Shown: piece after piece, positions 8,306 through 62,604 of the stretch | How positions within the stretch are numbered: position 1 is the stretch's first letter | How the letters are laid out: each line of letters begins with the position of its first letter | NCBI RefSeq assembly: GCF_006345805.1 | Contig: NC_042998.1 | Location: 168,206,001 to 168,270,000 of the forward strand | From: Octopus sinensis | Taxonomy: Eukaryota | Length of the DNA stretch: 64,000 bases | Direction of reading: 5' to 3' | Notes under the pieces: model-generated | What the model saw: only the letters and a program-made list of their open reading frames with translations | Databases searched by the model: none | What the model was told of the DNA's origin: nothing | Program-made: the position numbers and the translations under genes

Positions 8306-8424
8306 GCTTATGTTATTTTGTTCTGAGATATTATATTACAGTATACTTGCGTGCACGCTTGCTGTGTGTACGCGTGCATATTTAGTGTCTGTGGGTGTGT
8401 TTCAATTCACTCACACGCACCTAT

Positions 8425-8505
<81 letters not shown>

Positions 8506-8515
8506 GTATATATGT

Positions 8516-9250
8516 ATATTAAATTAATAATAATATACATATGTATATAAATATATTCACGTGATCACGTGACCGACCAGTCCATCAGATGTAGTTACAC
8601 ATCGCTGGTCACAATGTGTTCGCATTGTTTTAGCCTTCGAATGACGCCGCCCCGCTGGCTAAGCGAGCAGGCCAACAGAAGAAAGAGTGGTGAAAGAGTA
8701 CAGCAGGGATCACCACCCCCTGCCAGAGCCTCGTTGAGCTTTTAGGTGTTTTCGCTCAATAAACACTCACAACGCCCAGTCTGGGAATCGAAACCGCGAT
8801 CCTACGACCGCGAGTCCGCTGCCCTAACTACTGAGCCATTGCGCCTCCACATATAAATATATTAAGGGAGCAAAAGCGAAAACGACCTATCTCCAGCATT
8901 CTTGAAGTGCCGATACCTTAAAAAGAAACTAACAAAAACTCCAGATAAATATACACATGGCTGAAAGTGGGCTAGTGAATGAATATTAAAAAGACTTCAC
9001 GTTCATTGTGAATTGTTTTGACGAAGGAATAAAGCCTATTTTTGCCTTTAATCCAGAAATAGAAACCAATTCACAATTAACGTGAGGTATTTTTAATATT
9101 CTTTCATTCAGCCATGTTTATATTTATCTGGAGTTTTTGGTAGTGTTTTGAAGGTATCTACACTTGATGCATGCTGGAGATAGGTCATTTTCGCCTTCAC
9201 TTGCTTAATATAATTATATACATATGTATATTATTATTAATTTAATGTAT
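8516..9250. mobile_element. imperfect foldback element (second copy ~9478-10211), left arm interrupted by a SINE
   Basis: 8864-9018 is the reverse complement of ~9062-9210, and 8516-8550 pairs with ~9214-9250. Confidence 0.75.
8558..8850 (-). mobile_element. tRNA-derived SINE family 4 with 13-bp TSD (duplicate copy 9520-9812)
   Basis: Minus-strand head gtggaggcgcaatggctcagtagttagg..ggtttcgattccc (A/B boxes). TSD atataaatatatt at 8545-8557 and 8851-8863. Confidence 0.85.
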
Positions 9251-9384
9251 AAATTGCCTATAAATTTTTATAGCATTCTGACTACCTGATAAAAACCATT
9301 AACGTGATTTTTATCCTCATATTCAATTATGAATTAATATCTCTCTCTCTCTCTTTCTCTTTCTCTCTCTCTCTATATATATAT

Positions 9385-9467
<83 letters not shown>

Positions 9468-10345
9468 GTATATATGTATATTAAATTAATAATAATATAC
9501 ATATGTATATAAATATATTCACGTGATCACGTGACCGACCAGTCCATCAGATGTAGTTACACATCGCTGGTCACAATGTGTTCGCATTGTTTTAGCCTTC
9601 GAATGACGCCGCCCCGCTGGCTAAGCGAGCAGGCCAACAGAAGAAAGAGTGGTGAAAGAGTACAGCAGGGATCACCACCCCCTGCCAGAGCCTCGTTGAG
9701 CTTTTAGGTGTTTTCGCTCAATAAACACTCACAACGCCCAGTCTGGGAATCGAAACCGCGATCCTACGACCGCGAGTCCGCTGCCCTAACTACTGAGCCA
9801 TTGCGCCTCCACATATAAATATATTAAGGGAGCAAAAGCGAAAACGACCTATCTCCAGCATTCTTGAAGTGCCGATACCTTAAAAAGAAACTAACAAAAA
9901 CTCCAGATAAATATACACATGGCTGAAAGTGGGCTAGTGAATGAATATTAAAAAGACTTCACGTTCATTGTGAATTGTTTTGACGAAGGAATAAAGCCTA
10001 TTTTTGCCTTTAATCCAGAAATAGAAACCAATTCACAATTAACGTGAGGTATTTTTAATATTCTTTCATTCAGCCATGTTTATATTTATCTGGAGTTTTT
10101 GGTAGTGTTTTGAAGGTATCTACACTTGATGCATGCTGGAGATAGGTCATTTTCGCCTTCACTTGCTTAATATAATTATATACATATGTATATTATTATA
10201 ATTTAATGTATAAATTGCCTATAAATTTTTATAGCATTCTGACTACCTGATAAAAACCATTAACGTGATTTTTATCCTCATATTCAATTATGAATTAATA
10301 TCTCTCTCTCTCTCTTTCTCTTTCTCTCTCTCTCTATATATATAT

Positions 10346-10412
<67 letters not shown>

Positions 10413-10413
10413 T

Positions 10414-10895
10414 ATCATCATCATCATCGTCCTTCATGGTGTGCACAAACGTTTTACTTTCGGAACCAATGTTCTTGATACGGAGTCACAATCAGCTTCC
10501 TTAGATGTCGACGTTCTTTCTTACAATCCTTGTTCTTCCCAATAGACCAGATTTCTGAATTAATGCAACTTTCGTCGCCCCACTAATCACATGAGAAAAC
10601 TGCCAAGTCTGTTGGTGACACAATCTCGGGCAACTATAACTGGCATTACTTTTGTAGAATCTCTCCATGGTCTTCGCATTTCCCGAGCATAATCCTATTA
10701 TTGTCCTATTTTCTCTTGTTCTTTGACCACTACATTCATGTTCGCAGATATAGCTGCATCTATGATGATGCATTTTTCCCCCTTGCCCAGAACAATAAAA
10801 TCTGGTTCTTGAATGAAGTTCGTGATTAGTCTGTACATTAAATACCGTAAGACCTTATACTGGTCATTCTGTATTACACTCTCCGGTTGATGTTT
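10414..10895 (-). mobile_element. R4/Dong-like endonuclease 3' fragment
   Basis: PESVIQNDQYKVL..PDFIVL..CIIIDAAI..KEQEKI..IQKSGLLG, with a (GAT)n tail. Confidence 0.7.
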
Positions 10896-13130: not shown

Positions 13131-13499
13131 GCCCGCCTACAAATAACATGCCTTTAAAGAAGAATCTTTCTTTTCGTGATATGGTTCTTGACTGCCCTTT
13201 CTAGCATGTAAGAAATCCACATAGTTAATCTCTCTTTGTGTATAAAATCTTATGTACTATTATATAGAAATATTCATGTCTTCTGATTTTTAATTACGCA
13301 TGCTGACCACTAGTAAAAAATTACCATTTTTTAATAATTCTTCCCCTGTAATTATATACATATACATATATGTGTGTTCGTGTTTATGCGTGTTTATGCG
13401 TGTTTGTTTGTGCTTACGCGTGCGTGTATGTGTATTTGTGTGTGTGTGTGTTATATTATAGTACATATTATATAATGGGTGTAATATGTAGAGGGAAAT

Positions 13500-15244
13500 T
13501 TCACAGTCTAATTACTCGAGAGTCTCGTCAGCGAACGGCAGTCACCGGTTGAATACTTGTCAATCTTTGTAGGTCTTTTGCTAGTTTTGTCTGAGCACTG
13601 TCATTACTAGTTTTTGTTCTTTCTATGACTCATCAAATGCTTTTGTTTTTGAAGTACTTGTTTTGTTTTTGTTCATGTCATGTATTCCTTTTTGCGTGTT
13701 TGTTTTTATTTTGCTACTTTTTAGTTCTGGATCACTCACACTACAAAAAAGCCCATAGTGAAAATCATTTCAGCCACCTTTCATTAAGTTACATTGGTTA
13801 TATTACCCAATGTGTCTTCTCTAATTGAAGAGAAGGCAATGTTATATAGTTTGTTAAGGATTTAGCTGCTATTTCTAGCAGGTCGAGTATTTGCGTATAA
13901 GCTTTTTTTAACCCTTTACCTGTCCAAAGCATTTCCATGATATTCTCCAAAACGTTGTGGCTTGTTTCCAGGCTTTCAGTTAGCCTCTGTTTTGTACGTT
14001 CTTAGTAATATAAAACTTTCCTTTCATACGTCCCAAGTTACTCTGGTGATTAAAAAAAGTGGTAAAATGTATTATATATTATGCGTGGACGCCAGAAAAT
14101 ATGTCGTATGTATCACGAGTGATGCACGGAAGAAGCAAAGGGTTAAAATTGAAAGGGTAGTATTTGAGGGCGGTTTGGCTGATGTTTCTCGCAAAATGTC
14201 GTCAGCAATTGTGAGCCATTGTATTAGCGACTTGTGCGTTGTTCATGAGTTGGAAGGATCTTGTATTTCATGATTACTTCTTTTATAAGCACCTGTTGAA
14301 GTGCTAAGTCGTCATTTTCGTATTTGAGGATTTAATCAATTTCACTCGTTGTTCGTAGAAACAGTGCAAATCATATAAGGGGTACTTACGTGCAACAGTT
14401 TATGGAAGACTGCAAGGTTGTACAATTTGCATAAGACTGTGAGTGGTTCAATTCAATAAGATAACAATCAGTTCATAAATGTACAGAAGAAAATGTAGGA
14501 GGAATAATTAAAATCTAAATCAATAGAATATTGGTCATGAAATTCATTGATGTGTGATATATAGAAGCAGATTTCCGGTATATCTGGGCTCCAACGAAAA
14601 CGTACTGGTGGTTGTTATGAAGGGTCAGAGACTCAAGGTGATCGAGTAAGAAATCTTTACGACTGTCTCCATTACTTTTGAAACGTTGGAATTTAGGTCA
14701 CAAAGTCGGTAGTTGACAGGGTCAAAGAGTTTGATTTTATTTAAAGCTATGACTCACTTGTCTGACACTTATTTTTGTTGGTTGCGATAGTCATGTAAAG
14801 AAGCAAAATTTTTATTATTATAGAAGCATGTATTGTAGCGGGTTGATTGAGTTCAATATAGGCAAATGGTCTGCATGTATCAAAGAAGTTGTTGCTGGAT
14901 ATATATGTGTCCCTAGATCAGCCTTGATCGAGCTGACATAAATAGTCGATCGAACAACTAGTTGTGATCCACGGGTTTATTCACGTGTATATGTCATATT
15001 CTAGGTCTAGTTGCCGACCGTGCTCCACATTCTGATTAACAAACAGTGGTTAAGTGTATGGGATACAGTGTAGAAGTTTGAAAAAGCGGCGAATCCGCAG
15101 AATAACTCGAATGTTGGATCAAATGCTTTGCGATATTCATTCCGGCATTCTGTATTCTGTGTTCAAATCCCGTCACAGTCAACTTTGCTTTAAATCTCTT
15201 CGGAATCGAGATAAAGTCCCAATTCAACAATGGATTCGATTCCC

Positions 15245-18300: not shown

Positions 18301-18504
18301 TACTAATATAAGATGAAGTTTTTTCACAGAAAAAAATTCCATCAAAAAAATGTGGCAGCATATTAACCTTTAAGGTTAAAATTATAAACAACTTATAAAT
18401 AAGGGCTAAAGAAAATTATTTCTATGCCAATATGCTGCTATCAGTTATCTGTTATCAGCATATTGGCATAGAAATAATTTTCTTTAGCCCTTATTTATAA
18501 GTTG

Positions 18505-18505
<1 letters not shown>
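18301..18505. mobile_element. short foldback element, family B
   Basis: Perfect 50-bp arms at 18388-18437 and 18456-18505. Homologous to 23665-23794 and 56972-57120. Confidence 0.8.
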
Positions 18506-19444: not shown

Positions 19445-20623
19445 TTCTTCTTCTTGTTTCTTATTATTCTTTCTTATTATTCTTATTATTAAGGTGGTGA
19501 GCTGACGAAATCGTTAGCACGATGGGCGAAATACTTTGCGGTATTTCGTCCGTCTTTACGCTCTGAGTTCAAATTCCGCTCTGAGTTCAAATATTGTAAT
19601 TGTTGTTGTTGTTGTTATTATTATTTTCATCATCACAATTTTCAGCTGTAAATAAATTTTACTCGGTCTTATATTCTTTTCCTCTTCCTTAGCAAAACAC
19701 TGGAAATATTGAATCCATTTCAATCCATATTAGCTGTTGCTTGATTTAATATTCATTGAAACTTCAAATTATTGAGCGTGTTGGTAGAAAACTGACGAGC
19801 TTTTCTCCTTTGTACGTTGTTGTTTTTTCCTGCACCGTTCCTCAGTACATCGTATGCTAAAATAGAGAAATAAAAACTTCAAATTATCATTTCTAAGTCT
19901 TAACGGAATTTGTAATCTTGCCTTCAGTCAAATATTTCTTTCGTAAATTCTAAGGCAGTATTTCCCAAATATTTTCAAGCTACTTCCCTTTTTCTCTTAA
20001 CGCCTCAGTACACTCCAAGATGATTCATTGGCAAGTAAATTTTAATAAATCGTATTACTACAAGTATAATTTTACAAAAGTATCTAAAATTATTTTTAGT
20101 TGTGTATTGATATGAAGGAAGGGCCTGATGCTGTGTAACTAAAACTTCCCACATCCGGTTCAATATTTGTAAGAAGCAGAGATCAACGAGCTTATAGACT
20201 CGTTAGCACGCCGAGCAAAATGCTGAGCGGCATTTCGTCCATCTTTACGTTCAGAGTCCCCATTTCGTCGAGGTCGACTTTGCCTGTCATCATTTTCGGG
20301 CTCGATAAAATAAGTACTAGTTGGTCACTGATGTAATCGACTAACCCCCGCCTCCGAAAAATAAATCGAAACCAATATCAGTAAGAAGCAGTCATATGCG
20401 TCCGTTTAAGTATTTTTTGTCGGTTTCTCTTCCTCCTCAAATGGTAGTACTGTTCTGTTGGTTGAACTATTCTATTGAAGAGCCAAATTCTTGTATGTAA
20501 GCCTATGGTGTTGGAGGACCAGAAAACGCACATTTTCTGGAATACCACCGCAGCTTTGCCAGTTCAATGGTTGACGTTGGACTCAATATCCTCATTGTTA
20601 CTTCGTTCAGAGATTTATTATTG

Positions 20624-23006: not shown

Positions 23007-23369
23007 CAGCCGCAATTGCAAAGATAATCTGGAACTGGACTGACGGAATAAAACTCCGAATGACCCGTCCTTGTTTTCTTTGTATCGTCTGTCTGGATGT
23101 TTTGTTGTCCCTTTTTTGTATCACCTAACTGCCTGGATGTTTTGCGTTCTTGTCCCATTTTGTATTATATATAAAAACATATAGCGGCGTACGTACACTT
23201 TGGTTTCTTATATGTAAGTACATATATATATATATGTATGTATTTATTTCTAATGCCAAATATGCCGAAAAATTGGACATATTGTCCTTTACCATATAAT
23301 TTTTCACAATACGCACGCTACTCGAAAAAAAAAAGCCGACAGAAATTTCTAAAAAGTTCCATCATTACC

Positions 23370-23424
23370 ATATCGGACCGATTTCAGGGTTAGTTCGTAA
23401 GAACCCTCCCTTCGTCAGTGATAC
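23370..23424 (-). ncRNA. type I hammerhead ribozyme motif (inverted copy of 23892-23946)
   Basis: Reverse complement of the plus-strand motif. Confidence 0.65.
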
Positions 23425-23891
23425 ATGTGGCATAGAAATAAATGAAATACTTACTCATACCCACGGAAGAAGCAAAATACATGTGGCAAAGAAATAAATG
23501 AAATACTTACTCATACCCATGGAAGAAGCAAAATACTAAGTCATGAGCACAATTAAGTACCCCAAATACATCCAAAATAGAAATACTCCTGCCCATTCAA
23601 GACACGTGCGATTTGAACTGAGGTTCTCACAGAGTGAGAGAGTCCGGAAGTGAGCACTTAAATTTATATTTAATGTAGGAAAAATTTTTTTCGAAAGAAA
23701 AAAATTTTATCAATGGCCAGCATATTAAAAAAATACCTTTAACGGTTAAAATTATAAACAACTTATAAATAAGGGCAAACGAAAAGTATTTCTATTTTGG
23801 ATGTATTTGGGGTACTTAATTGTGCTCATGACTTAGTATTTTGCTTCTTCCATGGGTATGAGTAAGTATTTCATTTATTTCTTTGCCACAT

Positions 23892-23946
23892 GTATCACTG
23901 ACGAAGGGAGGGTTCTTACGAACTAACCCTGAAATCGGTCCGATAT
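23892..23946 (+). ncRNA. minimal type I hammerhead ribozyme motif
   Basis: gtatca CTGACGA [aggg..gttc ttac gaac..ccct] GAAA tcg GTC cgatat. Stem I tatc/gata, GUC triplet. Confidence 0.65.
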
Positions 23947-24186
23947 GGTAATAATGGAATTTTTTAGAAATTTCTGTCGGCTTTTTTTTTTCGAGTAGCG
24001 TGCGTATTGTGAAAAATTATATGGTAATGGACAATATGTCCAATTTTTCGGCATATTTGGCATTAGAAACTTTTTCGTTGGCCCTTATTTATAAGTTGTT
24101 TATAATTTTAACCGTTAAAGGTATTTTTTAATATGCTAGCCATTGATAAAATTTTTTTCTTTCGAAAAAATTTTATCCTACATTAA

Positions 24187-24221
<35 letters not shown>

Positions 24222-24227
24222 TGTATG

Positions 24228-24255
<28 letters not shown>

Positions 24256-24258
<3 letters not shown>

Positions 24259-43422: not shown

Positions 43423-44837
43423 TCAACAATGGATAGGGATAAGAGTAGAAAATTCTGGGTAAAATAAATTAAATAAAAATAAATAGAATTAAATAGATAA
43501 ATTACATGAATAATAAAAAGAAATATAATGAAAAAGAAGAAAAGGAATAGTTGTCTGAATAAATAGATCAAAATAAATGAAGTAAAAGGTAACGTAATGG
43601 AAGTGTAAACCAATCCACACATAAGACAGAAGTTTGGGTAGAATTTAGTAAACTAAAGGGGTGGTTGCCAGAGATAGGGAGAGGTAGTAGCAACACATAC
43701 TTTGTGTTAAAAAGAAAATTAGCGTGATAAAATAAACTTTGGGGTGAATTAAGTGTAGTCATTTATTGACTGACAGGGGTATCGCTTCGTGATGAAGAGA
43801 CTGGATTTGGCATCGTTTATGTAGGAAAAGTGTGCGGTTGGGTGCGTTAGTGGTAGGAGTTTAACTTTATAAAGCAGGTATACTGAAAAGACTAAAAGAC
43901 AAAAGCAAAGAAAAATGTCTTTGCGCCTGAAATCATCGTTAAAAATTGCTTTCACATAATGTGTCTAGGGCAAGTCAGTAAATAAGGCCTATCCATTCCT
44001 ATGTTAATAGGATAAGCTGAAAACTACAGGCAATGTGCGTAAGTCATACGAAATGACTCAAAAGGAGATCCAAATTAGATTACAAAACTCGTCGCGTGCC
44101 TATCATTGTTCTACGACCGACAATTCCCACTAATACGTATGTAAAACGGGCGGAAACATACTCAACATCCTATGCACCAGATAATACAAATACAAAAATT
44201 CTCACAGACCAATAAACAAAAGTAGTCAAGTAAAATTTACGCACTGAAATATACAAATTCAGACAGGAACAAATGAGCACTAGCTGGGAAATGTAATTCT
44301 CATTTGGTTACTTTCCCAGGAGGTTAAATATACCATGGTCATATGAAGGACAAAAGCTGTCAGTGGTTCGTCTTAAGGCTCCAAAAGCATTATTTTTGTA
44401 GAACTTCTCAATTAGAGATGTCAATATATTCTTTTATTCTCTTACTTGTCTCAGTCATTTGATTGCGCCCATGCTGAAGCTCTGCCTTAAAAGTTTCATA
44501 TATATATGAACTGTTTTTAGAAATTAATTGTGTAAGCAATTACAGGTGATATACATGTGAACACAGAGACAGATAAGAACCGAATCATTAACACCACCAG
44601 GAGATTTTTCCTACTGATTGAGAGAACATGTTTAAGAACTGTAAACATTTCAGTTTAACTCTCGTCGAAGCTGAAACGGTTGGATACATTTTTTAAGAAA
44701 TGCAAAGAATGAAAGTAAAGGCTGTGTCTTCCGCCAAAACAGCATTCATTGACTCAATAAGAAAATGTATTAAAGAGTTTTCATCACAAACTTTCTCCAG
44801 ACCACTTCTGAGTCAATATATTTTATGATAAATACTA

Positions 44838-45252
44838 ATTTCTTTACTACCCACAAGGGGCTAATCACAGAGAGGACAAACAAGGATAGACAAACGGATT
44901 AAGTCGATTATATCGACCCCAGTGCGTAACTGGTACTTATTTAATCGACCCCGAAAGGATGAAAGGCAAAGTCGACCTCGGTGGAATTTGAACTCGGAAC
45001 GTAGCGGCAGACGAAATACCTATTTCTTTACTACCCACAAGGGTCTAAACACAGAGGGTACAAACAAGGACAGACAAACGGATTAAGTCGATTACATCGA
45101 CCCCAGGGCGTAACTGGTACTTAATTTATCGACCCCGAAAGGATGAAAGGCAAAGTCGACCTCGGCGGAATTTGAACTCAGAACGTAACGGCAGACGAAA
45201 TACGGCTATGCATTTCGCCCGCAGTGCTAACGCTTGTGCCAGCTAATCGCAC
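44838..45252 (-). mobile_element. SINE family 1 head-to-tail dimer
   Basis: Two ~182-bp units; the second lacks the first ~50 nt of the head. Confidence 0.85.
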
Positions 45253-46739: not shown

Positions 46740-47520
46740 TAACGTTTCTACCATTTGTACAAGGCCTGAAATTTGGTGGGACGGGTAAGTCGATTACATC
46801 GATCCCAGTGCGTAACAGGTACTTAATTTATCGACCCCGAAAGGATGAAAGATAAAGTCGACCTCGGCGGAATTTGAACTCGGAACGTAACGGCAGACGA
46901 AATACTTATTTCTATTTCTTTACTACCCACAGGAGGCTAAACACAGAGAGGACAAACAAGGAGAGACAAAGGGATTAAGTTGATTACATCGATCCCAGTG
47001 CGTAACTGGTACTTAATTTATAGACCCCGAAAGGATGAAAAATAAAGTCGACCTCAGCGGAATTTGAACTCGGAACGTAACGGCAGACAAAATACCTATT
47101 TCTATTTCTTTACTACCCACAGGGGGCTAAACACAGAGAGGACAAACAAGGAGAGACAAACGGATTAAGTCGATTACATCGACTCCAGTGCGTAACTGGT
47201 ACTTATTTAATCGACGCCGAAAGGATGAAAAGCAAAGTCGACCTCGACGGAATTTGAACTCAGAACGTAACGGCAGACGAAATTCCTATTTCTTTACTAC
47301 CCACAAGGGGCTAAACATAGAGAGGACAAACAAGGAGAGACAAACGGATTAAGTCGATTACATCGACTCCAGTGCGTAACTGGTACTTATTTAATCGACC
47401 TCGAAAGGATGAAAGGCAAAGTCGACCTCGGCGGAATTTGAACTCAGAACGTAGCGGCAGACGAAATATGGCTACGCATTCCGACCGGCGTGCTAACGTT
47501 TGTGGCAGCTCGCCGCCTTC
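46740..47520 (-). mobile_element. SINE family 1 tetramer with 13-bp TSD
   Basis: Four units with ~181-187 bp period. TSD tgttgaataataa at 46727-46739 and 47521-47533. Confidence 0.85.
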
Positions 47521-49832: not shown

Positions 49833-49868
49833 GTTACTGAAGAAGAGCTGTCCTCGAAACGTAAAATA
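49833..49868 (+). ncRNA. minimal type I hammerhead motif in ~190-bp element between (TACA)n tracts
   Basis: CTGAAGA a[gag ctgtc ctc] GAAAC GTA. Palindromic acgt stem III; weak stem I. Confidence 0.55.
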
Positions 49869-49954
49869 ATTACTCATCTTCCTCTCACGTTTGTTATTTT
49901 TTCATTTTCTTTTTCTCAGTGTGTTTTTCTAATTGACTACGTACATGCATAAAT

Positions 49955-51098: not shown

Positions 51099-51307
51099 CT
51101 GTTCATTTTTTTTTTTTGCCAAATAAACTAACGCACAATATTTTCGTTTTTCACTCCGTTATTACTGTTCTTATTTTAACTGATGTCCATTGTCCGGAAA
51201 TATTTTGTCACACATTTGTGACCTCTCCAGCTACACTTTCCGTCCTCGTGTATCCTCATGCTCCGCTTAGTCCATTCTTTTCTTCTATGGATGAAATATA
51301 ACACTAT

Positions 51308-51960
51308 TTGGACGTGGATTTTGCGGTGGAGAAGTGCGTGGAGTTGATCAGCGAGAGCGAAGTAGAGTTCCGCAATGACAACACAGAGGAACTGGGCCCC
51401 CTACTTAGACTGACATATGACAATGAATATCTAGACAAACATGACCTTAGAAATATCTGCCCCAGAAGACGTTTAAGAGGTAGGCCACCCATAATTATAT
51501 CTATGGCTAGGAAGGCTCCTATAGAGGGATGGAGCGGATGGACCAGAACCTTACAGAACCCCGAAAACGAATATCAAGTAAAGAAAATGATCGCACATGC
51601 ACTAGGAGCTCGTATAAAAGTTACCCTAAAAGGCCACACGTTTAAGTTTAACAACAAAATATACGCCCAGGATGAGGGGGCAGCCATTGAGGTTAGCATC
51701 GCCGGTGATGTGGCCAACATTTTCATGGTATGGTGGGACAAAAGGCTTAAAGAACGCCTGACACAGAACTACATGTTCATGAACATGTACTCTCGCTATG
51801 TCGATGATATCAACATAGTGGTAAGGGACATCACCAGACTATCTGATGACGGCAGGCAAGCTGAAACTTCGAAATTGCTGTTGACCATTTCTTTGCACTC
51901 AACAAAAATGTATTGAATGACCCTTCACTGCAATATCAAATTGTTTTTATAACTTCTAAC
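51308..51960 (+). mobile_element. Penelope-like reverse transcriptase fragment fused to an HHR-like 3' end
   Basis: FKFNNKIYAQDEGAAI..VANIFM..YSRYVDDI. CTGATGA c[ggc aggcaa gct] GAAA cttcgaa at 51843-51873. Confidence 0.8.
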
Positions 51961-56922: not shown

Positions 56923-56971
<49 letters not shown>

Positions 56972-56972
<1 letters not shown>

Positions 56973-57120
56973 CAAACTTATAAACAAGGGCAAAAGAAAA
57001 TATTTTCTTTTGCCCTTGTTTAAAGTGTTTTTAAATTTAACTTTCAAGGTTATATAATATGCTGCCACTTTTTCTTGATGAAATTTTTTTCTGTAAAAAA
57101 AAAACTTCATCCTATATAGT
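56972..57120. mobile_element. short foldback element, family B
   Basis: Perfect 42-bp palindrome 56981-57022. The long arm is homologous to 24070-24190 and ends in (TAG)n. Confidence 0.75.
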
Positions 57121-57185
57121 AGTAGTAGTAGTAGTAGTAGTAGATATATATATAAATATATATATATCACCTTTTTGTTTTGGTG

Positions 57186-61769: not shown

Positions 61770-62190
61770 AAAGGCGGCGAGCTGGCAGACTCGTTAGCAC
61801 GCTGGGCGAATGCTTAGCGGAATTTCGTCCGCCGTTACGTTCTCAGTTCAAATTCCGCCGAGGTCGACTTTACCTTTCATCCTTTCGGGGTCGATAAATT
61901 AAGTGCCAGTTACGCACTGGGGTCGATGTAATCGACTTAATCCGTTTGTCTGTCCTTGTTTGTCCTCTCTATGTTTAGCCCCTTGTGGGTAGTAAAGAAA
62001 TAGGTATTTCGTCTGTCGTTACGTTTTGAGTTCAAATTCCGCTGAGGTCGACTTTGCCTTTCATCCTTTCGGGGTCGATAAATAAAGTACCAGTTTCGCA
62101 CTGAGGTCAATGTAATCGACTTAATACATTTGTCTGTCCTTGTTTGTCCCCTCTCTGTTTAGCCCCTTGTAGGCAATAAAGAAATATTTG
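61770..62190 (+). mobile_element. SINE family 1 dimer with 15-bp TSD
   Basis: TSD aatttataagaaatt at 61755-61769 and 62191-62205. Confidence 0.85.
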
Positions 62191-62604
62191 AATTTATAAG
62201 AAATTTTGATGGAAGGTTTTAGATACATGTTTATATTCATGATTGACTATTGCAGTTAGATTATACTCTAATTTGTGATTTCTCTTATTGTAAAGAAAAC
62301 TAAGATTTTAATGAATAAAAAATTTATTATTTCTCTAGCTGAGAAGGAGGGAAATTTGTTATTGTTCTCACGTATAATAAAGTCAACGACTGGAAAAAAA
62401 TGGGATGTGTGGAGCTTATTGAGAAAATTTATTTGAACTGGTACAGTTCAAAAAATATCATAGCAAGAAAGAGCCAGATGTATAATATACACAATATTAA
62501 AATGAGTGATTAAGCAATGATCAGCATAAGGTCCAGAAGGGAAAATTGAATGCGGAATAACCGAATCGATTAAGTAGTGAATTTAAGGATGCATAGGTAA
62601 TAGT

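What the first reader, a model, noticed from the sequence alone, without database searches (positions are those of the whole stretch)
23245..24191. Best-preserved example: divergent double-HHR element containing a circularly permuted unit
The plus strand from 23785 reads A'(HHR)-B'. The minus strand from 23794 reads B'-spacer-A'(HHR), starting and ending on the same tagaaata. That is one permuted unit of ~490 nt once a 56-bp internal duplication (23421-23536) is removed. The two arms join at a 10-bp microhomology, agtatttcta. Inference: the template was a circular or multimeric HHR-processed RNA as in retrozymes, or a PLE-type partial tandem. Read-through transcripts would form long dsRNA.
Basis: partly seen in the sequence, partly recalled or inferred. 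Interest (0 to 1): 0.75.

Follow-up and report, generated by a model that had tools for sequence, protein, structure and literature searches.

The report
Two-armed hammerhead retrozyme insertion
This is one copy of a scattered, protein-free repeat family with a predicted self-cutting RNA motif, inserted as two back-to-back arms in an AT microsatellite, likely by a borrowed Penelope-type reverse transcriptase copying an RNA circle; the kind is known, and the copies make that copying route testable.

Summary
The anatomy is real. A 540-nt minus arm (one ~486-nt unit, permuted, plus a 56-bp duplication) sits head-to-head with a ~405-nt plus arm, and each arm carries a type I hammerhead. The spacer is part of the unit: 44 of 108 loci show the end-to-start junction. 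Three details are corrected. (1) Covariation puts the cut at AUA (23945), not GUC (23940). (2) The '10-bp microhomology' is right-arm sequence: the switch shares 1 nt, next to a 7-nt inverted repeat. (3) A one-unit arm is no commoner than chance (5 of 120 arms). The two-arm form is normal for the family (60 of 108 loci). Outer ends pile up at two sites 89 nt apart, which is the Penelope-like (PLE) 'inverted copy plus tail' signature. A young sister subfamily has arms of up to 7.5 units, and each locus carries one haplotype, which favours repeated copying of one monomer, likely a circle. No partner PLE was identified, and cleavage and circles could not be tested. This scan reached the same reading earlier on other DNA of this genome.

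The parts
23220..23245 (.). Left target: (TA)n/TATG microsatellite
   Evidence: Sequence; family copies end in (TA)n
23246..23785 (-). Inverted arm, read B'-S-A' (unit positions ~u365-486, then u1-363): one unit less 1-2 nt, plus the 56-bp duplication. Outer end at the minor site u363
   Evidence: ends at or near u363 also in L045, L085, L032, L058
23366..23423 (-). Type I hammerhead, copy 2; predicted cut after A23371
23421..23532 (.). 2 x 56-bp tandem duplication (96% identical), found in the left arm only
23588..23666 (-). Segment S (u1-79): part of the unit, not flank
   Evidence: End-to-start junction in 44 of 108 loci; 21 exact hits of the 25-nt junction, control 0
23667..23785 (-). B' (~u365-486) of the preceding unit
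   Evidence: 116 of 120 aligned bases identical to B
23782..23794 (.). Head-to-head junction: 1-nt exact overlap at 23785 beside a 7-nt inverted repeat (u83-89 against u357-363)
23785..24189 (+). Direct arm A-B (u80-486); outer end at the major site u486
23893..23950 (+). Type I hammerhead, copy 1: stem I UAUCA/UGGUA, core CUGACGA...GAAA, stem III AUCG-GUC-CGAU; predicted cut after A23945
   Evidence: Covariation over 15 variants: 87.9% of cells paired, 13 pairs with two-sided change, 0 of 500 shuffles
24105..24189 (+). 'Tail' between the family's two fixed ends (u397 = 24104, and u486)
   Evidence: Of 168 outer ends, 55 are at u397 and 66 at u483-486; position
24190..24256 (.). Right target: TA/TATG microsatellite

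Best explanation
This is one dispersed insertion of a protein-free ~486-nt repeat with a predicted type I hammerhead (a non-LTR retrozyme), likely written into a TA microsatellite by a borrowed Penelope-type enzyme that primed both target strands on the element's RNA, probably a monomer circle. Shown: unit structure, copy number, two fixed outer ends, variable inner ends, TA targets, multi-unit arms and one haplotype per locus in the sister subfamily. Inferred steps: (1) tandem transcripts are cut at AUA and ligated into ~486-nt circles; (2) a GIY-YIG endonuclease cuts both strands of (TA)n; (3) each 3' end primes reverse transcription at an AU-rich internal site (u397 or u486; here the minor site u363 and u486); (4) both cDNAs run toward the 5' side, past the hammerhead and the unit boundary, and stop at random; (5) the two cDNA ends are joined head-to-head through 0-5 nt of overlap or a small insert.
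For: Family F1: 91 exact 37-nt core hits, control 0. The wider clan has 1611 descriptor hits, control 0. Two-arm form in 60 of 108 loci. Of 168 outer ends, 55 are at u397 and 66 at u483-486. 50 of 60 two-arm loci have an end at u387-397 and 33 of 60 pair it with u477-486. The 120 inner ends are flat across the unit and none lies within 5 nt of the cut. 142 of 226 segments run through the cut site. Junction overlap is 1-5 nt in 26 of 60 loci, more than 5 nt in 7, blunt in 4, an insert in 23. Sister families at 58-65% identity end at the homologous sites. Young subfamily F3: 20 of 20 fetched loci have an end at u393-395 followed by (TA)n; arms reach 7.55 units; three loci have multi-unit arms on both sides (2.7+5.5, 4.1+4.3, 3.0+2.1). 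All 18 multi-unit loci carry one haplotype at a G/T marker (log10 P -16.6 if units were drawn independently; one C cell set aside). Locus-variant pairs: 23 fixed in all units, 8 partial, 135 single. 69 of 73 units read an unscarred cut site. In F1, tandem neighbours are as alike (0.65 of between-locus divergence) as arm segments of the same index (0.69). Literature: an inverted 5'-truncated copy, a tail and (TA)n bias are PLE hallmarks (PMC8557442 passages). A purified PLE protein cuts and extends both strands and starts at two internal RNA sites that define the tail (PMC11167929).
Against: No autonomous PLE shares sequence with the unit. A 12-sequence profile hit only one passenger copy among 46 GIY-YIG loci. 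PLE fragments near unit loci were not placed like a pLTR, judged from coordinates only. The multimer and haplotype evidence comes from F3, not from the focal family, whose longest arm is 940 nt; the F3 loci were chosen for having several hits. In F1, cross-arm segments of different index are as divergent as unrelated loci (ratio 1.02, CI 0.61-1.5, 584 sites). In 10 loci, different-unit pairs were more divergent than same-unit pairs (0.67 against 0.47, P=0.051), which leans toward a linear tandem template for F1. The tail (89 nt) is longer than the 30-40 bp reported for PLEs. The second end is looser than the first (434-489 in F3; past the unit boundary in several F1 loci). The one-unit arm of this locus is at chance frequency (5 of 120 within 10 nt, about 5 expected).
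Confidence: 0.62

Rival explanations
1. Same PLE-type two-strand priming, but on a linear, uncleaved tandem read-through RNA (or one monomer re-read by template jumping). The hammerhead is a passenger and no circle is needed.
For: In the anole PLE, hammerhead mutants insert normally and unprocessed RNA is the main substrate (PMC11167929). F1 arms never exceed two units. F1 different-unit pairs are somewhat more divergent than same-unit pairs (P=0.051). 8 of 9 Xenopus retrozyme dimers did not cleave in vitro (bioRxiv 10.64898/2026.07.22.740005).
Against: F3 loci are each homogeneous, carry locus-specific fixed variants, and share no unit-specific variants apart from homopolymer edges and array ends. 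That needs a frequent monomer bottleneck. The hammerhead fold is kept with compensatory changes across 15 variants. Unit joints at the cut site are unscarred in 69 of 73.
Confidence: 0.24
2. Units are solo pLTR remnants of a PLE that inserted as monomers; arrays grew later by unequal crossover, as proposed for vertebrate retrozymes.
For: Local amplification would also give one haplotype per locus. 8 partial variants exist. The model is proposed in bioRxiv 10.64898/2026.07.22.740005. Later local duplications do occur here (the 56-bp duplication; L019).
Against: Both arms are multimeric in three F3 loci and share variants (a T5 run in all 9 units of L215). The young family (0.5% within-locus divergence) has long arrays and the older one (4.5-4.8%) has short ones, the opposite of growth with time. 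No parent PLE was found.
Confidence: 0.09
3. The inversion arose by fold-back self-priming or a DNA-level rearrangement (or assembly error) after a single-arm insertion.
For: Self-priming on an antisense template was proposed for PLE head-to-head junctions (PMC3846280 passages). No listed contig from other runs bridged this junction (uninformative).
Against: The left arm holds S and B', which the right arm lacks upstream, so it cannot be a copy of the right-arm cDNA. Inverted arms end at fixed unit positions against TA repeats in 50 of 60 loci. The arms carry private differences (282 of 285 and 116 of 120 identical, plus a duplication), unlike a read artefact.
Confidence: 0.05

Closest known systems
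Metazoan non-LTR retrozymes (Cervera and de la Pena 2020, PMC7229834, passages and Discussion read; Li, Clavereau and Pollet 2026, bioRxiv 10.64898/2026.07.22.740005, parts 1-3 of 5 read)
   Same: Short non-coding tandem unit with one type I hammerhead each, low GC (31%), monomers to multimers, proposed circular intermediate and PLE mobilisation.
   Different: The unit is ~486-505 nt against ~170-400 nt circles in the first paper (within the 51-972 bp range of the second). Copies are dispersed, and over half of those sampled are two-armed with two fixed ends. 'Inverted' has 0 occurrences in the main text of PMC7229834. RNA circles are not shown here.
EN+ Penelope-like elements: pLTR, inverted 5'-truncated copy, tail (PMC8557442 passages; PMC3846280 passages; PMC11167929 parts 1-2 of 4)
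   Same: Partial tandems, head-to-head inverted copy, two alternative ends, TA-rich targets, 5' truncation, hammerhead upstream of the ends.
   Different: No RT or GIY-YIG ORF, and no homology to the PLEs examined. The tail is 89 nt rather than 30-40. The hammerhead has a 4-bp stem III rather than the minimal PLE form.
Opposite-strand dual hammerheads 100-700 bp apart in Schistosoma mansoni (PMC4209133, part 1 of 4 read)
   Same: The same divergent double-hammerhead geometry (480 bp between cores here).
   Different: There they were minimal motifs read as truncated PLEs; here the whole unit is non-coding and tandem.
LINE-1 twin priming (recalled, no call)
   Same: Both target strands prime on one RNA, giving an inverted 5' part joined by microhomology.
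   Different: No poly(A) priming; both starts are internal and fixed; arms overlap widely and span several units.

Membership tests
Non-LTR retrozyme | Type I hammerhead with intact core in the unit | tested here: met
   Covariation; no Rfam hit
Non-LTR retrozyme | [quoted passage not shown] | tested here: met
   F1 near-dimers L012, L018, L104; F3 up to 7.5 units. The focal locus itself has one hammerhead per arm
Non-LTR retrozyme | No ORF, no LTR/PBS/PPT layout, GC below 45% | tested here: met
   No frame of 100 aa or more over the element; GC 31%; no LTR-flanked interior in 108 loci; PBS and PPT were not searched separately
Non-LTR retrozyme | Self-cleavage of the transcript | not testable with these tools
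   Only contigs were available
Non-LTR retrozyme | Expression as monomer linear and circular RNA | not testable with these tools
   No listed holder is on record as RNA, and contigs cannot show ends or circles
EN+ Penelope-like element (autonomous) | ORF with RT and GIY-YIG endonuclease between pLTRs | tested here: not met
EN+ Penelope-like element (insertion signature) | Partial tandems with an inverted 5'-truncated copy | tested here: met
   60 of 108 loci two-armed
EN+ Penelope-like element (insertion signature) | Two alternative ends defining a tail | tested here: met
   u397 and u483-486; 89 nt, longer than the reported 30-40 bp
EN+ Penelope-like element (insertion signature) | AT-rich or (TA)n target | tested here: met
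   Flanks printed
EN+ Penelope-like element (insertion signature) | Short target-site duplication | tested here: inconclusive
   Both flanks are TA/TATG repeats, so a duplication cannot be delimited
Non-autonomous PLE derivative | Sequence shared with the pLTR of a named autonomous PLE | tested here: inconclusive
   None among 46 loci, drawn from 147 listed matches (150 of 5029 GIY-YIG candidates scored); most PLE families were not sampled

The most novel reading that the evidence does not exclude
The copies record twin-primed rolling-circle reverse transcription: a PLE enzyme primes both cut target strands at two fixed sites 89 nt apart on one hammerhead-made RNA circle and runs round it several times. 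This would explain retrozyme arrays as made at insertion, and would explain the PLE pLTR, tail and inverted copy by one mechanism. The loop III triplets GUC, AUU and GAC are all self-complementary at their ends, which hints that two hammerheads pair as a dimer, so tandem RNA would cut and a lone circle would be spared.
Probability: 0.45. Interest if true: 0.65.

Novelty: new member of a known kind. Interest (0 to 1): 0.4.

Why it matters
Which enzyme mobilises animal retrozymes, and whether their arrays come from rolling-circle copying or from later local amplification, is stated as open in the 2020 paper and the 2026 preprint. This clan supplies at least 1611 hammerhead copies, two mapped start sites and young homogeneous two-arm arrays. 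That allows a direct test with RNA ends and a purified PLE protein. The focal locus itself is an ordinary, older member. Its hairpin could be a dsRNA source if transcribed, which was not shown.

Tried and rejected
Rfam found no hammerhead. Single-sequence folds of the hammerhead were unremarkable (z -1.3 to -1.7) and did not give the active fold.

GUC cleavage was rejected. A 10-bp exact microhomology was rejected. The one-unit arm as proof of a circle was rejected. A pile-up of 5' ends at the cut site was not seen.

L031 and L032, with two cores 3.1 and 1.5 kb apart, were checked as possible pLTR-ORF-pLTR elements; both are segmental or tandem duplications. L146, with the unit on both sides of an RT/GIY-YIG ORF, is a passenger case: a 1.68-kb repeat carries the unit, and the other copies of that PLE lack it.

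The third candidate family (56998-57122) is the same as F2. An apparent within-array polymorphism at u193 of F3 was an alignment artefact. The same-unit against different-unit test in F1 was underpowered.

RNA: no RNA holder listed; contigs only, with no ends, editing or circle information. No listed contig bridged the junction.

Paper searches. No listed paper held both 'twin priming' and 'pLTR', and I saw no description of two-armed retrozyme arrays in the parts read. Supplements were not read and may hold such cases (e.g. Figure S9 of PMC7229834; bioRxiv supplements were closed).

Full report
Observation. The window shows three inverted pairs and a 56-bp tandem duplication at the stated places, and two hammerhead cores at 23898 (+) and 23418 (-). 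The genome is a 2.72-Gb assembly; I did not establish the organism (earlier scan notes call it a cephalopod). A search with the right arm gave 81 matches from 40 scored of 3787 candidates. The exact 37-nt core has 91 hits, control 0. I mapped 110 loci: 30 best hits plus 7 more, and 73 regions. Two overlapping duplicates were dropped, leaving 108. The reference was a natural 486-nt unit from L018. The loci are biased toward copies ending at u486.

Unit and locus. The unit reads S (u1-79), A (u80-363, with the hammerhead), B (u364-486). End-to-start junctions occur in 44 of 108 loci, so the spacer is not flank. The focal locus is an inverted arm running u363 to u1 and on to about u365, joined to a direct arm u80-486. 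The inverted arm is 484 nt without the duplication, one unit less 1-2 nt. Both arms share four minor variants, consistent with one source.

Junction. In other copies the A/B boundary reads mostly TAGAAATTTTTTCG, and 0 of 112 read TAGAAATAC. The 10-mer is therefore right-arm sequence, and the switch shares one A at 23785. A 7-nt inverted repeat (u83-89 against u357-363) lies beside it, and L036 joins at the same pair. The 7-mer at u357-363 is also a minor outer end in other copies. This double use explains the one-unit arm without a circle. Arms within 10 nt of a whole unit are 5 of 120, about what chance gives.

Hammerhead. Rfam misses it. Sister families supply covariation. F2 (504 nt) and F3 (about 494 nt) are 65% and 58% identical to F1. 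A descriptor requiring the AUA arrangement has 1611 hits, control 0 (100 listed). Over 15 variants the AUA fold has 87.9% of cells paired, 13 pairs with two-sided change, helix I 97% and helix III 100%. With a GUC cut, helix I falls to 40%. An 8-sequence alignment gave the same contrast. The variants are related, so the shuffle control overstates significance. The loop III triplet varies (GUC, AUU, GAC), so GUC is not conserved. The predicted cut is after A23945, and A23371 on the minus arm. Activity is untested.

Insertion signature. 60 of 108 loci have two divergent arms. Of 168 outer ends, 55 are at u397 and 66 at u483-486, and the u486 ends printed run into (TA)n. Inner ends are flat across the unit with none at the cut site, and 142 of 226 segments cross the cut site. 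The template was therefore uncleaved or re-ligated. Several second arms run past u486, so u486 is an internal start and not the RNA end. F2 and F3 use the homologous ends. This matches PLE anatomy (PMC8557442 passages; PMC3846280 passages). It also matches the in vitro behaviour of an anole PLE, which cuts and extends both strands and starts at two internal sites (PMC11167929). Opposite-strand hammerhead pairs were noted in Schistosoma (PMC4209133).

Circle or linear template. I fetched 20 F3 loci, picked for multiple hits from the first 100 of 306 matches; L226, an inverted duplicate of L225, was dropped for the variant counts. All 20 have an end at u393-395. Arms reach 7.55 units, and three loci are multimeric on both arms. 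Divergence is 0.49% within loci and 0.94% between. Over 84 aligned units, 23 locus-variant pairs are fixed in all units, 8 are partial and 135 are single (singles probably include assembly errors). All 18 multi-unit loci carry one haplotype at a G/T marker. The P value there assumes both haplotypes were available at once, which may not hold. 69 of 73 units have an unscarred cut site. This favours repeated reading of one monomer. Against it, for the focal family: arms stop at 940 nt, and different-unit pairs were a little more divergent than same-unit pairs in 10 loci (P=0.051). Over all loci, however, tandem neighbours (0.65) matched same-index arms (0.69). Local amplification is not excluded for single-arm arrays.

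Partner enzyme. The genome holds intact, near-identical RT plus GIY-YIG ORFs of 781 aa that end in TA repeats, so a capable enzyme exists. None of 46 such loci shares sequence with the unit, apart from one passenger copy. The partner is unidentified.

RNA. Only contigs of runs guessed to be RNA were available; they cannot show ends, circles or editing. The read-through hairpin is a prediction.

Verdict. This is a new member of a known kind: a non-LTR retrozyme by sequence criteria, with its RNA criteria untested, inserted with a PLE signature. It is not an autonomous PLE. Earlier reports of this scan reached the same reading on other pieces of this genome. I saw them after forming mine, and they are not independent support. 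Interest 0.4. The locus is ordinary for its family, and the family makes an open mechanism testable.

Noticed in passing
window 18304-18505 and 56965-57123: Two short two-arm remnants of sister family F2, with the same pair of ends and TA flanks.
   Followed up: yes
G000:C1:73243884-73247941 (L215 1885-5942), also L213, L218, L223, L227: Young F3 arrays of ~494-nt hammerhead units, up to 7.55 units per arm and multimeric on both arms; the best material for a mechanism test.
   Followed up: yes
L146 636-5479 (G000:C1:207474135-207478978) and L147-L152, L154: Young PLE family (98-99% identical) with a 479-aa upstream ORF without a convincing Pfam hit and a 781-aa RT/GIY-YIG ORF. Its 3' repeat holds what looks by eye like a U3-A8 minimal hammerhead (near L146 5350-5390; untested).
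   Followed up: partly
L155 7484-9153 and L146 4917-6591: A 1.68-kb, 99.3% direct repeat holding the PLE 3' end, host flank, an F1 copy and another repeat flanks the PLE on both sides: possible 3' transduction of a retrozyme by a PLE, or a segmental duplication.
   Followed up: partly
L031 (G000:C5:117016000-117025900): Tandem array of metazoan SRP (7SL) RNA genes with ~3.1-kb period, carrying a truncated F1 copy in two repeats.
   Followed up: partly
window 51302-51916 (+): 204-aa open frame with a YVDD motif that resembles a reverse transcriptase fragment by eye; no Pfam hit.
   Followed up: partly
window 49837-49870 (+), 13499-13531 (-), 19502-19531 (+): Further CUGANGA...GAAA motifs unrelated to this unit; not tested as hammerheads.
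   Followed up: no
window 44822-45250, 46786-47520, 61771-62203: Another dispersed repeat occurring as ~185-190-nt tandem dimers to tetramers.
   Followed up: no
window 8422-9455 and 9382-10415: A 960-bp-period tandem duplication at 99.5% identity with an internal inverted relationship.
   Followed up: no
L232 (G000:C1:12994800-12996150): A two-arm copy of a further subfamily with loop III GAC, duplicated in tandem at 916 bp.
   Followed up: partly
G000:C4:7500-14500 and 83500-90500 (L225, L226): The same F3 array appears twice in inverted orientation near a contig start; a large inverted duplication or an assembly artefact.
   Followed up: no
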